Part shown: piece after piece, positions 7,361-39,265 of the stretch
How positions within the stretch are numbered: the first letter of the stretch is position 1
Layout of the letters: every line of letters begins with the position of its first letter
NCBI RefSeq assembly: GCF_009914755.1
Contig: NC_060941.1
Direction: 5' to 3' (one strand)
Length of the DNA: 64,000 nt
From: the human T2T-CHM13v2.0 reference genome, Homo sapiens
Translations under genes and position numbers: made by a program
The notes under the pieces: generated by a model
What the model saw: only the letters and a program-made list of their open reading frames with translations
Told to the model about the DNA's origin: nothing
The model's database searches: none

Positions 7361-7699
7361 AGAGAGAAGAATACAATACCTATTTTTAAAAATTTATCAC
7401 CTAGGAGAAACTGGGTAAAGTGTTACAGGCACTCTGTCTACTATCTTTACAACTCTTTTGTAAACCTAAAATTATTTCAACATAAACATAACAACAATAG
7501 CTGCTGCAACTATTCCTAAAAAAAAAAATCATGTAAATTATAGGGCAGAGAGAAGAAGACAGTGTGTGGGGGGTGGGGAGGTGTTTAGGAATATTTTTCT
7601 CCAATTACCTTGTTCCTTCCCAAAAGAGATATTGACCTATATTCTAGTACACTTTATCCTGTCTTCTGCTATAGCCAACCTGTTGAACTCATCCATTTA

Positions 7700-35137: not shown

Positions 35138-35335
35138 AGTGTGTGCCATGGTCCACATTCCCAATTCTTTATGTTGAACCTAGGTGATTCGCCAAGTTTA
35201 TTCTGTTCTTTCTGGGGCCATCCCAAAATCCTTAAGGAGGCTATGGCAACTCTGTCCCAGTGTCTTACAGGCCCACCAGCCAAGATATCTGAAAACACAT
35301 ACAGATAAAAAGTTTGCTTAAAAAAAATCAGTTAC

Positions 35336-35560
35336 GGCCTCTTCCCGGCCACCATCCCATCTAGGAAGTGAGGAGCGTCTCTGCCCGGCCACCCATCGTC
35401 TGAGATGTGGGGAGCGCCTCTGCCCCGCCGCCCCGTCTGGGATGTGAGGAGCGCTTCGGCCCGGCCGCGACCCCGTCTGGGAGGTGAGGAGCGTCTCTGC
35501 CCGGCCGCCCCGTCTGAGAAGTGAGGAGACCCTCCACCTGGCAACTGCCCCATCTGAGAA
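35336..35560 (+). mobile_element. SVA VNTR fragment from a second SVA, part of the 5' transduction
   Basis: Colinear with 36198-36422 of the main SVA but ~15 mismatches in 225 nt. Confidence 0.9.
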
Positions 35561-35889
35561 CGGCATTCCAGATTTTTCTGCAGTCCAGAATAGAGCACCA
35601 CCACCATAGCATTTCAAGCTCATTCTAAGTTCATCTTATCAATGACAAGAGGAGACACGTTGTTCATTCATGTATGAGGTAGTACTTTCCAATTGAAGAC
35701 ATTGCTTTGAAAGAGACTGCCAAATTGGTTTCATTGAGAAGGAATGAAAGAAGCTAAAAGGCTTTCACCTGAGATTTGACAATAGCCAGAAAACCTCTGT
35801 TAATAATGAATGTTTCCCTATCTGCAAAGTGAAGATATGTTTCAATGCTTCAACGCATAGGAAGTCTGTAGAACAGTGCAAAGAATATA
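35561..35889 (+). other. Captured unique sequence inside the SVA insertion (5' transduction)
   Basis: Non-repeat-looking DNA lying inside the insertion TSDs. Confidence 0.8.
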
Positions 35890-35957
35890 CAGGCATACCT
35901 TGAAGATATTACAGTTTTGGTTCCAGACCATCATAAAAAGGTGGATATTGCAATAAG
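35890..35957 (-). mobile_element. Tigger1 terminal fragment, part of the 5' transduction
   Basis: ta|caggcatacc..gatatt..ggttccagacca..gatattgcaataa matches the Tigger1 end. Confidence 0.75.
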
Positions 35958-37689
35958 GCTGGAGTGCAGTGGCGTGATCTCGGCTCGCACAACCTCCACC
36001 TCCCAGCCGCCTGCCTTGGCCCCCCAAAGTGCCGAGATTGCAGCCTCTGCCCGGCCGCCACCCCGTCTGGGAAGTGAGGAGCGTCTCTGCCTAGCCGCCC
36101 ATCGTCTGGGATGTGAGGAGCCCCTCTGCCTGGCTGCCCAGTCTGGAAAATGAGGAGCGTCTCTGCCCGGCCGCCATCCCATATAGGAAGTGAGGAGGGC
36201 CTCTTCCCGACAGCCATCCCATCTAGGAAGTGAGGAGCGTCTCTGCCCGGCCGCCCATCGTCTGAGATGTGGGTAGCACCTCTGCCCCGCCACCCCGTCC
36301 GGGATGTGAGGAGCGCCTCTACCCGGCCGCGACCCTGTCTGGGAGGTGAGGAGCGTCTCTGCCCGGCCGCCCCGTCTGAGAAGTGAGGAGACCCTCCGCC
36401 TGACAACCGCCCCGTCTGAGAAGTGAGGAGCCCCTCCACCCGGCAGCCTCCCCGTCAGAGAAGTGAGGAGCCCCTCCGCCCGGCAGCCACCCCGTCTGGG
36501 AAGTGAGGAGCGTCTCCGCCCGGCAGCCACCCCGTCCGGGAGGGAGGTGGGGGGGTCAGCCAGCCGCCCCGTCCAGGAGGGAGGTGGGCGGGTCAGCCCC
36601 CTGCCCGGCCGGCCGACCCGTCCAGGAGGGAAGTGGGGGGGTCAGCCCCCCGCCCGGCCAGCCGCCCCGTCCGGGAGGTGAGGGGCGCCTCTGCCCGGCC
36701 GCCCCTACTGGGAAGTGAGGAGCTCCTCTGCCCGGCCAGCCGCCCCGTCCGGGAGGGAGGTGGGGGGGTCAGCCCCCCGCCCGGCCAGCCGCCCCGTCCG
36801 GGAGGGAGGTGGGGGGGTCAGCCCCCCGCCTGGCCAGCCTCCCCGTCCGGGAGGTGAGGGGCGCCTCTGCCTGGCCGCCCCTACTGGGAAGTGAGGAGCC
36901 CCTCTGCCCGGCCAGCCCCCCCGTCCGGGAGGGAGGTGGGGGGGTCAGCTCCCCGCCCGGCCAGCCGCCCCGTCCGGGAGGGAGGTGGGGGGGTCAGCCC
37001 CCCGCCCGGCCAGCCGCCCCGTCCGGGAGGGAGGTGGGGGGGTCAGCCCCCCGCCTGGCCAGCCTCCCCATCCGGGAGGTGAGGGGCGCCTCTGCCTGGC
37101 CGCCCCTACTGGGAAGTGAGGAGCCCCTCTGCCCGGCCGCCACCCCGTCTGGGAGGTGTGCCCAGCAGCTCATTGAGAACGGGCCATGATGACAATGGCG
37201 GTTTTGTGGAACGGAAAGTGGGGAAAGGTGGGGAAAAGACTGAGAGGTTGGATGGTTGCCGTGTCTGTGTAGAAAGAGGTAGACATGGGAGACTTCTCAT
37301 TTTGTTCTGTACTAAGAAAAATTATTCTGCCTTGGGATCCTGTTGATCTGTGACCTTACCCCCAACCCTGTGCTCTCTGAAACATGTGCTGTGTCCACTC
37401 AGGGTTAAATGGATTAAGGGCGGTGCAAGATGTGCTTTGTTAAACAGATGCTTGAAGGCAGCATGCTCGTTAAAAGTCATCACCACTCCCTAATCTCAAG
37501 TACCCCGGGACACAAACACTGCGGAAGGCCGCAGGGTCCTCTGCCTAGGAAAACCAGAGACCTTTGTTCACTTGTTTATCTGCTGACCTTCCCTCCACTA
37601 TTGTCCTATGACCCTGCCAAATCCCCCTCTGCGAGAAACACCCAAGAATGATCAATAAAAAAAAATAAAAAAGAAAAAAAAAAAAAAAA
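35958..37689 (+). mobile_element. SVA retrotransposon (C/D-like) lacking hexamer and 5' Alu-like region
   Basis: Distal Alu-like region, GC-rich VNTR (~36045-37150), SINE-R, AATAAA 37654-37659, poly(A). Confidence 0.97.
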
Positions 37690-37783
37690 GAAACTATCCA
37701 ATCCTCAGCCTGCTCGGCTGCTTACTCTGTTTCACCCATGCCTTCTGTGAAAACAACAGTAAAGGTTTTGCCCAGGGAAAAAA
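37690..37783 (+). other. 3' transduction with second poly(A)
   Basis: ~88 nt after the SVA poly(A), AGTAAA 37758-37763, A run from 37778, then TSD 37784-37799. Confidence 0.85.
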
Positions 37784-37799
37784 AAAAAAAATCAGTTAC

Positions 37800-38659
<860 letters not shown>

Positions 38660-38704
38660 TCAGTTAAGTATAGATATATTTCAAAATTCAAAAAGTACAG
38701 AAGG

Positions 38705-39265
<561 letters not shown>

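What the first reader, a model, noticed from the sequence alone, without database searches (positions are those of the whole stretch)
35336..35570. SVA-to-SVA splicing: first module ends exactly at a cryptic VNTR splice donor
Seen: the upstream VNTR piece stops at ...catctgagaa (35560). At the homologous position of the main SVA (36422) the next bases are GTGAGG, i.e. GAA|GTGAGG, a 5' splice-site-like motif repeated in the VNTR. The piece differs from the main SVA at ~15/225 positions, so it is a different copy, not a local duplication. Inference: transcription began in or ran through one SVA, spliced out of its VNTR into unique exon(s), then into a second SVA that supplied the 3' end. One SVA acts as promoter/first exon and another as exon trap, mobilising the exons between them. 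The first base (g 35336) could be a cap-derived G, but the main SVA also has g there, so this is ambiguous.
Basis: partly seen in the sequence, partly recalled or inferred. Interest (0 to 1): 0.8.

Follow-up and report, generated by a model that had tools for sequence, protein, structure and literature searches.

The report
Retrocopied SVA–exon–exon–SVA spliced chimera
A single young retrotransposon insertion on chromosome 17 is the DNA copy of a spliced RNA in which a piece of one SVA element on chromosome 5 was joined to two neighbouring chromosome 5 exons and then to a second SVA, a tidy but not revolutionary example of mobile elements shuffling exons by splicing.

Summary
Window 35336-37783 is one insertion flanked by a 16-bp target-site duplication.

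It has four modules:
- A 225-bp SVA VNTR piece.
- Two chr5 minus-strand exons with their 1,386-bp intron removed, matching the source at 252/252 and 144/145.
- A second SVA that begins right after the CCCAG of its Alu-like region.
- An 87-bp 3' transduction from chr13, followed by a poly(A) tail.

At the chr5 source, all three junctions fall on canonical GT/AG sites. A full-length SVA lies on the same strand 3,499 bp upstream of exon A. It carries the fragment's rare 29-mer, which is exact at only 5 places in the genome, followed by GTGAGG.

Four caveats remain:
- The variant GAGCGCTTCGGCCCGG is unique to the window.
- The first ~13 nt of the fragment lie in a VNTR unit that this assembly's chr5 SVA lacks.
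- No second SVA lies within 100 kb downstream of exon B, so the cis "trap" SVA is inferred as a lost or polymorphic copy.
- A promoter role for the first SVA is only hinted at, by a possibly untemplated 5' G.

Each step is a known mechanism: VNTR splice donors, exon trapping by SVAs, and 5'/3' transduction. The new point is their combination in one element. I found no description of this in the papers I could search. Hancks 2009 and Damert 2009 were not readable.

The parts
35320..35335 (+). Left target-site duplication AAAAAAAATCAGTTAC, preceded by TT (an L1 endonuclease TT|AAAA site)
   Evidence: the identical 16-mer recurs at 37784-37799.
35336..35336 (+). First base G of the insertion, possibly untemplated (cap-derived)
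   Evidence: the two closest relatives that keep this VNTR unit (chr8, chr3) have C at this position, while the main SVA has G. The donor allele is unknown, so this remains ambiguous. Untemplated G at full-length SVA insertions is reported in PMC3287187 (passage seen).
35336..35560 (+). Module 1: a 225-bp VNTR piece derived from the chr5 SVA lineage. It ends at a GAA|GTGAGG splice donor.
   Evidence: Identity is 209/225 to the main SVA and 217/222 to the SVA at C5:77467108-77466887 minus strand. The terminal 29-mer is exact there and is followed by gtgagg.
35561..35812 (+). Exon A, copied from chr5 minus strand C5:77463387-77463136
   Evidence: Identity 252/252. At the source it is flanked by ...ttacacAG| and |GTAAGT.
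35813..35957 (+). Exon B, copied from chr5 minus strand C5:77461749-77461605. Its 3' third lies in an old interspersed repeat.
   Evidence: Identity 144/145, with T/G at 35838. At the source it is flanked by ...cttcAG| and |GTGAGT, and the 1,386-bp intron between A and B is absent. The last ~70 nt match many loci at 79-93%.
35958..37689 (+). Module 2: the second SVA. It starts at GCTGGAGTGCAG of the Alu-like region, followed by the VNTR (~36046-37158), the SINE-R (~37159-37656) and the first poly(A) (37657-37689).
   Evidence: In full-length SVAs (chr5, chr10) this start is preceded by ...ggtgcccAG|. Tandem-repeat structure. AATAAA lies at 37654 and 37664. It closely resembles the chr10 sibling carrying the same transduction.
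37690..37776 (+). 87-bp 3' transduction whose parent locus is C13:44993456, ending after an AGTAAA signal at 37758
   Evidence: Identity is 87/87 to chr13 and to the chr5:80.79 Mb SVA, and 99% to the chr10:94.85 Mb SVA. The chr13 locus has no SVA in this assembly, and the siblings carry a longer (~195-bp) version. Signal position.
37777..37783 (+). A G followed by the terminal poly(A) tail. The A-run 37778-37791 merges with the As of the TSD.
37784..37799 (+). Right target-site duplication AAAAAAAATCAGTTAC
35365..35665 (+). RefSeq MIR2117HG exon 2. It begins after ctAG at 35363-35364 inside the VNTR piece and crosses the VNTR|exon A junction.
   Evidence: Coordinates from the hub annotation table supplied with the finding. 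AG checked.

Best explanation
Window 35336-37783 is one L1-mediated retrotransposition of a spliced, polyadenylated chimeric RNA made at a chr5 locus.

The proposed sequence of events:
1. Transcription began in, or ran through, a sense-oriented full-length SVA on chr5.
2. A GAA|GTGAGG donor in its VNTR was spliced over the rest of that SVA, including its poly(A) signal, to exon A 3.5 kb downstream.
3. Exon A was spliced to exon B.
4. Exon B's AAG|GTGAGT donor was spliced to an AG in the Alu-like region of a second SVA.
5. That second SVA belongs to a lineage carrying a chr13-derived 3' transduction, which supplied the 3' end and the poly(A).
6. L1 proteins then copied this RNA into a TT|AAAA site on chr17.

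Shown: the single insertion, intron loss, all splice-site coincidences, the upstream chr5 SVA, and the lineage of the second SVA.

Inferred: that the second SVA once lay downstream of exon B on a chr5 haplotype that this assembly does not carry, and that the RNA may have started inside the first SVA.
For: - Single event. An identical 16-bp TSD lies at 35320-35335 and 37784-37799, poly(A) occurs only at the 3' end, and the target is TT|AAAA.
- Exon source. The unique part maps to two chr5 minus-strand blocks at 252/252 and 144/145, with the 1,386-bp intron missing.
- Splice sites. All six splice-site positions are canonical at the source: VNTR GAA|GTGAGG; acAG|exon A|GTAAGT; tcAG|exon B|GTGAGT; SVA cccAG|GCTGGAG.
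- Upstream SVA. It lies on the same strand, with the donor 3,499 bp from the exon A acceptor. It shares the fragment's 29-mer, which is exact at only 5 places in 3.1 Gb including the window itself. A second upstream SVA 60 kb away matches the fragment at only 92.9%.
- Different SVA copies. The VNTR piece differs from the main SVA at 16/225 positions, while the exons differ from their source at 1/397.
- Lineage of the second SVA. Its 87-bp 3' transduction is shared with SVAs on chr10 and chr5:80.79 Mb. Its parent site on chr13 lacks an SVA in this assembly, so members of this lineage are absent from this genome.
- Literature. Human SVA VNTR donors splice efficiently in reporter constructs (PMC7353768, passages). 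Exon-to-Alu-like splicing followed by retrotransposition is documented for MAST2/SVA_F1, STK40 and MRPS18A (PMC6139936; PMC12593883).
Against: - No SVA, and no copy of the 3' transduction, lies within 100 kb downstream of exon B on chr5. The genome-wide search for the transduction found high-identity copies only on chr17 (the window itself), chr13, chr10 and chr5:80.79 Mb. The cis arrangement of the second SVA is therefore not observed.
- A catalogue of 543 non-reference SVAs has no entry on chr5 at about 76.94-76.99 Mb in GRCh38. That coordinate conversion is my own rough estimate.
- The chr5 SVA is not the best match to the fragment: 217/222, against 221/224 for a chr8 SVA. It also lacks the VNTR unit containing the fragment's first ~13 nt. 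This needs a VNTR contraction or allelic difference at chr5.
- GAGCGCTTCGGCCCGG is found nowhere else in the genome.
- The VNTR donor matches only 6 of 9 consensus positions (my count).
- I could not show that the two exons belong to any annotated gene.
Confidence: 0.85

Rival explanations
1. The chimeric RNA is the same, but the first SVA was not the promoter. A transcript that started further upstream on chr5 included part of the SVA as an exon or read through it. The insertion was then 5'-truncated during reverse transcription, inside the VNTR.
For: Most L1-mediated insertions are 5'-truncated (general knowledge). The fragment begins in the middle of a VNTR unit with no promoter landmark. 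Another sense SVA and much further sequence lie upstream on the same strand. The first G is also G in the main SVA's version of the unit, so it could be templated.
Against: The two closest relatives that keep the unit have C, not G, before GCCTCTTCCC. The 5' G therefore looks like the untemplated G seen at full-length SVA insertions (PMC3287187). No sequence from any upstream exon is present in the insertion.
Confidence: 0.45
2. Trans-splicing. The chr5 transcript (SVA VNTR, exon A, exon B) was joined by the spliceosome to an SVA pre-mRNA transcribed from another chromosome, for example the chr13 parent or a sibling. The product was then retrotransposed.
For: Both sides of the exon B|SVA junction are exact splice sites, yet no SVA with the chr13 transduction exists on chr5 near the exons in this assembly. 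The window's transduction is shorter than those of its siblings, ending after AGTAAA. That is what a transcript made directly at the chr13 parent locus could look like.
Against: Trans-splicing of independent pre-mRNAs is rare in humans (general knowledge). Polymorphic or lost SVA source elements are common, and the chr13 parent itself is absent here. The SVA_F1 founder is likewise described as a polymorphic intronic SVA (PMC12593883). No direct evidence exists for either route.
Confidence: 0.08
3. Template switching by L1 reverse transcriptase between separate RNAs (SVA RNA, chr5 RNA, another SVA RNA) created one or both SVA junctions. U6/L1 chimeras and the SVA-CKS1BP element arose this way.
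For: Template-switch chimeras involving SVA are documented (PMC12593883). This route would not require a second SVA in cis.
Against: Four breakpoint sides would each have to coincide by chance with an exact splice site. For the VNTR side alone, the chance is about 1.3%. There is no internal poly(A), no microhomology and no 5' truncation of the partner at either junction. These are the criteria the cited authors used to call a template switch.
Confidence: 0.03
4. A DNA-level origin at chr17: local duplication, gene conversion or recombination between SVAs, or two nested insertions.
For: The two VNTR stretches are homologous and lie only 860 bp apart.
Against: Identity between them is 16/225 mismatches, against 1/397 for the exons. 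The fragment carries lineage markers of the chr5/chr8/chr3 SVAs, not of the main SVA. There is a single TSD pair and no second poly(A) or TSD. The intervening sequence is intron-less chr5 exons.
Confidence: 0.01

Closest known systems
SVA 5' transduction by splicing ('exon trapping'): MAST2 exon 1 in human SVA_F1, STK40 exon 1 in chimpanzee pt_SVA_D6, MRPS18A exon 1 in a polymorphic human SVA
   Same: An upstream exon ends exactly at its donor and is joined to an AG in the SVA Alu-like region. The chimera was then retrotransposed with a TSD and poly(A), and the founder SVA at the source gene is not in the reference (PMC6139936; PMC12593883).
   Different: Here two internal exons were carried rather than a first exon. 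The 5' end of the RNA is itself a piece of another SVA, spliced out of its VNTR. The acceptor leaves ~88 bp of Alu-like sequence, and I could not show that it is the same AG as in SVA_F1 (one search was uninformative). There is no progeny: the exons occur only at chr17 and at the chr5 source.
VNTR splice donors of human SVAs, seen in reporter constructs, and the gibbon PVA family (VNTR fused to PTGR2 exon 4)
   Same: A donor inside the VNTR is joined to a downstream acceptor, skipping the SINE-R and the SVA poly(A) signal (PMC7353768). PVA elements are described as a fusion of PTGR2 exon 4 to the VNTR (PMC4432496).
   Different: The reporter cases are artificial acceptors in plasmids. PVA keeps the SVA 5' end and replaces the 3' end, and it became a family. 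Here the VNTR piece is only a 225-bp 5' leader on an insertion that ends in a complete second SVA 3' part. That PVA arose by splicing is my recollection, not something seen.
SVA 3' transduction families
   Same: The second SVA carries 87 bp of chr13 flanking sequence between two poly(A) tracts. It shares this with two sibling SVAs.
   Different: This member additionally has a spliced 5' transduction and uses an earlier polyadenylation site, after AGTAAA, than its siblings.
Template-switch chimeric retrocopies (U6/L1, SVA-CKS1BP)
   Same: Two or more RNAs of different origin end up in one TSD-flanked insertion (PMC12593883).
   Different: Those junctions lack splice sites. Here every junction sits on a canonical GT or AG at the source.

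Membership tests
L1-mediated (target-primed) retrotransposition insertion | Target-site duplication flanking the whole insert | tested here: met
   16-bp AAAAAAAATCAGTTAC at 35320-35335 and 37784-37799.
L1-mediated (target-primed) retrotransposition insertion | 3' poly(A) tail and an A/T-rich endonuclease site | tested here: met
   The A-run 37778-37791 abuts the right TSD. The target reads gcTT|AAAAAAAA.
L1-mediated (target-primed) retrotransposition insertion | RNA intermediate, shown by loss of introns relative to the source | tested here: met
   A 1,386-bp intron between exons A and B, and a 3,499-bp interval between the VNTR donor and exon A, are absent.
SVA 5' transduction by exon trapping | The transduced exon ends exactly at its genomic 5' splice site | tested here: met
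   Exon B ...GCAATAAG|gtgagt at C5:77461605.
SVA 5' transduction by exon trapping | The SVA part begins directly after an AG within the element | tested here: met
   Full-length chr5 and chr10 SVAs read ...ggtgcccAG|GCTGGAGTGCAG. The window's SVA starts at GCTGGAGTGCAG (35958).
SVA 5' transduction by exon trapping | A sense-oriented SVA lies downstream of the exon at the source locus | tested here: not met
   No SVA and no copy of the 3' transduction lies in the 100 kb downstream of exon B in this assembly. None is near chr5:77 Mb genome-wide. This could reflect a polymorphic or lost element. It lowers the cis claim, not the splicing claim.
SVA_F1 (MAST2) subfamily | MAST2 exon 1 sequence replaces the hexamer and most of the Alu-like region | tested here: not met
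   The 5' non-SVA sequence maps only to chr5:77.46 Mb, and MAST2 is a chr1 gene (recalled). About 88 bp of Alu-like sequence is retained.
SVA_F1 (MAST2) subfamily | Use of the same Alu-like acceptor AG | tested here: inconclusive
   An exact-pattern scan for elements starting at this position without the preceding G gave 180 hits. The 100 listed are almost all mutated Alus with no recurrent non-Alu context. The listing was truncated, and I could not read the SVA_F1 junction sequence.
VNTR-donor splice fusions | The VNTR piece ends immediately before a GT at the donor element, and the partner begins after an AG | tested here: met
   chr5 SVA ...CATCTGAGAA|gtgaggag; exon A is preceded by ...ttgttacacAG.
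VNTR-donor splice fusions | The donor element and the acceptor exon lie in cis, on the same strand and in the right order | tested here: met
   The donor at C5:77466887 and the acceptor at C5:77463388 are both on the minus strand, 3,499 bp apart.
SVA 3' transduction family (chr13 parent) | Unique flanking sequence between the SVA poly(A) and a second poly(A), shared with other SVAs and traceable to one locus | tested here: met
   87/87 to C13:44993456, 87/87 to C5:80786331 and 99% to C10:94850726. The latter two follow SVAs.
Template-switch chimeric retrocopy | Junction without splice sites, often with partner truncation or microhomology | tested here: not met
   Both SVA junctions coincide with canonical splice sites on both sides.

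The most novel reading that the evidence does not exclude
The second SVA was never on chr5. A chr5 transcript led by an SVA VNTR was trans-spliced to an SVA pre-mRNA from another chromosome (the chr13-transduction lineage), and the product was retrotransposed. That would be a germline-fixed record of inter-chromosomal trans-splicing between SVA-containing RNAs. It would also suggest that SVA donor and acceptor sites let dispersed copies recombine at the RNA level, a possible route for assembling composite retrotransposons.
Probability: 0.08. Interest if true: 0.8.

Novelty: new variant of a known kind. Interest (0 to 1): 0.45.

Why it matters
- It is a fossil of a complete germline chimeric RNA in which one SVA supplied a splice donor, and possibly the transcription start, while another supplied the acceptor, the 3' end and the mobilisation signal. 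Two ordinary exons were carried between them to a new chromosome.
- It shows in vivo that VNTR donors can bypass the SVA's own poly(A) signal.
- Pairs of sense-oriented SVAs can bracket and shuffle the exons that lie between them.
- The same splicing-based assembly proposed for composite elements (SVA_F1, pt_SVA_D6, PVA) can join SVA to SVA.
- The inserted piece has since been reused as the terminal exon of the lncRNA MIR2117HG.
- It also points to a missing chr5 SVA allele and a missing chr13 source SVA, both of which can be looked for in pangenomes.

Tried and rejected
- **Key papers not held.** Hancks 2009, Damert 2009 and Hancks & Kazazian 2010 could not be read. I therefore cannot say whether this chr17 element is in their 5'-transduction inventories.
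- **Literature searches.** Full-text searches for an SVA-exon-SVA or 'second SVA' spliced transduction found no description. The search for MIR2117HG gave 6 listed papers, seen as listings and abstract starts only; none concerns this structure. PMC9132208 and PMC13690279 held nothing relevant. PMC10380656 and PMC10681720 mention SVA exonisation and exon trapping only in general terms.
- **Search for the missing downstream SVA.** BLAST of 200 kb around the chr5 exons found two SVAs, both upstream. The genome-wide search for the transduction found no copy near chr5:77 Mb. The PMC12593883 supplement had no chr5 entry starting 7694-7699 and no CRHBP, AGGF1, S100Z or MIR2117HG entry. Some cells of that file were cut, and my GRCh38 coordinate estimate is rough.
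- **Test for the SVA_F1 acceptor.** A shorter one returned mostly mutated Alus, so the result is inconclusive.
- **Fetching related SVAs.** Only 1.2 kb of chr10 was added.
- **Naming the chr5 gene.** I could only anchor the locus. Exons with the CRF-BP domain lie at C5:77435860-77437682 on the plus strand, about 24 kb from exon B on the opposite strand. Whether exons A and B are annotated exons was not determined.
- **Rejected readings.** Local duplication, nested insertions and template switching are rejected, for the reasons given under the rival explanations.

Full report
**1. The observation**

- The stretch 35336-35560 is SVA VNTR sequence (tandem-repeat rows).
- It aligns without gaps to 36198-36422 of the large SVA downstream at 209/225. 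The next-best register scores only 159/225.
- The 16 mismatch positions are listed.
- The piece ends ...CATCTGAGAA at 35560. The homologous place in the main SVA continues GTGAGG.
- GTRAG occurs 16 times in the 1,113-bp main VNTR and 14 times in about 1,040 bp of the chr5 donor VNTR. A random breakpoint would therefore hit such a site in roughly 1.3-1.4% of cases.

**2. Anatomy of the insertion**

The 16-mer AAAAAAAATCAGTTAC occurs at 35320-35335, directly before the VNTR piece. It occurs again at 37784-37799, directly after an A-run. The target reads TT|AAAAAAAA.

| Window coordinates | Content |
|---|---|
| 35336-35560 | VNTR piece |
| 35561-35957 | Non-SVA sequence |
| 35958-37689 | SVA from GCTGGAGTGCAG of the Alu-like region, through the VNTR and SINE-R, to a first poly(A) |
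| 37690-37776 | Non-SVA sequence |
| 37777-37783 | A G, then the terminal poly(A) |

There is no internal TSD and no poly(A) between the VNTR piece and the unique stretch. This is one L1-type insertion, not a nest of insertions.

**3. Source of the unique stretch**

A search of the window's own assembly found it in only two places besides the window, both on the chr5 minus strand. One search refined the coordinates:

| Exon | Window | chr5 source (minus strand) | Identity |
|---|---|---|---|
| A | 35561-35812 | C5:77463387-77463136 | 252/252 |
| B | 35813-35957 | C5:77461749-77461605 | 144/145 (T/G at 35838) |

- At the source, the two blocks are separated by 1,386 bp, which includes a young Alu.
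- Both blocks have textbook splice sites...ctgctcttgttacacAG|CGGCATTCC ... AATGAATG|GTAAGT, and ...ccatgcttcAG|TTTCCC ... GCAATAAG|GTGAGT.
- The last ~70 nt of exon B lie in an old interspersed repeat, with many 79-93% matches.
- No other copy of the exons exists in the genome, so the composite has left no progeny here.

**4. The upstream SVA**

The fragment's terminal 29-mer is CTCCACCTGGCAACTGCCCCATCTGAGAA. It is exact at only five places in the assembly: chr3, chr8, chr17:45.09 Mb, the window itself, and C5:77466915-77466887 on the minus strand.

That chr5 site lies in a full-length SVA spanning about C5:77467680-77465665. The element has hexamer repeats, its own TSD (agattttaacaaaa) and a poly(A).

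- The 29-mer is followed by gtgaggag. The distance from this GT to the AG before exon A is 3,499 bp.
- That interval contains the rest of the VNTR, the SINE-R and the SVA's own AATAAA. Splicing from the VNTR would therefore bypass the element's own polyadenylation.
- A second sense SVA 60 kb further upstream matches the fragment at only 92.9%.

**5. What does not fit neatly**

- The fragment matches the chr5 SVA at 217/222. It matches a chr8 SVA at 221/224 and a chr3 SVA at 218/224.
- The alignment shows why. The fragment begins in a VNTR unit (GCCTCTTCCCGGCCACC...) that chr8 and chr3 keep. The chr5 and chr17:45.09 Mb SVAs have lost it, each with a different hybrid unit.
- The remaining differences are largely transitions at CpG sites. 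The fragment has 18 CpGs in 225 bp.
It is either a change after insertion or an allele not in this assembly.
- I take the position of the chr5 SVA (same strand, right order, canonical GT...AG) as decisive. I explain the sequence gap by VNTR contraction or allelic variation at chr5. That part is inference.

**6. The second SVA**

- The window's SVA starts at GCTGGAGTGCAG (35958). In full-length SVAs on chr5 and chr10, this is preceded by ...ggtgcccAG. Exon B's donor was therefore joined to an AG acceptor in the Alu-like region.
- The 87 bp after the first poly(A) match C13:44993456 at 87/87, an SVA at C5:80786331 at 87/87, and an SVA at C10:94850726 at 99%.
- The chr13 place has no SVA in this assembly. 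The chr10 and chr5:80.79 Mb SVAs carry a longer version (~195 bp) ending after AATAAA.
- In the window, the transduction ends earlier, about 13 nt after an AGTAAA at 37758.
- The chr10 sibling is a full-length SVA with its own TSD. It shares many of the main SVA's VNTR and SINE-R variants.
- The second module therefore belongs to a chr13-derived 3'-transduction lineage whose parent is absent from this genome.

**7. The gap in the model**

Splicing of exon B into an SVA normally requires that SVA to lie downstream in the same pre-mRNA.

- In this assembly, no SVA lies in the 100 kb downstream of exon B.
- No copy of the transduction lies anywhere near chr5:77 Mb.
- A catalogue of 543 non-reference SVAs has no matching chr5 entry, with the caveats given under Tried and rejected.

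The simplest reading is a polymorphic or lost SVA on the haplotype that produced the RNA. The SVA_F1 founder is described in the same way (PMC12593883, passage). Trans-splicing remains possible. I give it about 8%.

**8. Was the first SVA the promoter?**

- The insertion begins G|GCCTCTTCCC.
- The two closest relatives that keep this unit have C before GCCTC. The main SVA has G.
[quoted passage not shown] The G is therefore mild evidence for a capped RNA starting inside the VNTR.
- The true donor allele is unknown, and 5' truncation of a longer RNA is equally ordinary. I leave this near even odds.

**9. Comparison with what is known**

- Exon-to-Alu-like splicing followed by retrotransposition defines SVA_F1 (MAST2) and chimpanzee pt_SVA_D6 (STK40). 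It recurs in a polymorphic MRPS18A case (PMC6139936; PMC12593883).
- VNTR donors of human SVAs splice strongly in reporter constructs (PMC7353768).
- Gibbon PVA elements are a VNTR fused to PTGR2 exon 4 (PMC4432496).
- 3' transduction families are routine.
- What I did not find in four full-text searches is an element in which an SVA VNTR donor, intervening host exons and a second SVA's acceptor are combined in one retrocopy.
- The two 2009 inventories most likely to list it were not readable.
- I could not show that the acceptor is the same AG as in SVA_F1.
- I therefore call it a new variant of a known kind, with moderate interest.

**10. Side observations**

- The 15-mer AAAAAAAATCAGTTA occurs a third time at 38652-38666, after an older Alu (37800-38651). 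That Alu is itself split by a ~520-bp insert. The young composite re-used the left copy of that Alu's TSD as its own target.
- RefSeq MIR2117HG exon 2 (35365-35665, hub table) starts after ctAG inside the VNTR piece and crosses the VNTR|exon A junction. The retro-copied chimera is therefore exonised again at chr17.
- The RefSeq 'enhancer' 36955-37729 lies within the second SVA.

Noticed in passing
window 35320-35334, 37784-37798, 38652-38666; Alu 37800-38651: The 15-mer AAAAAAAATCAGTTA occurs three times. An older, diverged Alu has it as its TSD. The young SVA composite inserted into the left copy (plus 1 nt), so the same L1 endonuclease site was used twice.
   Followed up: partly
window 37857-38378: A ~520-bp non-Alu element interrupts the older Alu, whose two halves resume at 38379. 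It was not classified. It overlaps the RefSeq enhancer 38311-38810 from the hub table.
   Followed up: no
window 35365-35665: MIR2117HG exon 2 (hub table) uses an AG at 35363-35364 inside the VNTR piece as its acceptor and spans the VNTR|exon A junction. The terminal exon of this lncRNA is therefore made entirely of the retro-copied chimera.
   Followed up: partly
L010 (G000:C13:44991956-44995042), position 1501: The parent locus of the 3' transduction has no SVA in this assembly. The source SVA of this transduction family is therefore absent (polymorphic or lost) here.
   Followed up: partly
L050+L012 (G000:C10:94848000-94852312): A full-length sibling SVA with TSD aaaaaaaatggcaaagt and a ~195-bp version of the same chr13 transduction. 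Its VNTR and SINE-R variants are very close to those of the window's main SVA.
   Followed up: partly
L022 (G000:C17:45089719-45092747): Another SVA of the fragment's lineage (exact 29-mer) lies only ~0.8 Mb from the window on the same chromosome and strand. It has also lost the extra VNTR unit, but with a different hybrid junction from the chr5 copy.
   Followed up: partly
L002 positions ~165-470 (G000:C5, intron between exons A and B): A young-looking Alu with a long poly(A) and the TSD gaaagcagtggggcc sits in the 1,386-bp intron that the retrocopy lacks.
   Followed up: no
window 36955-37729: [quoted passage not shown]
   Followed up: no
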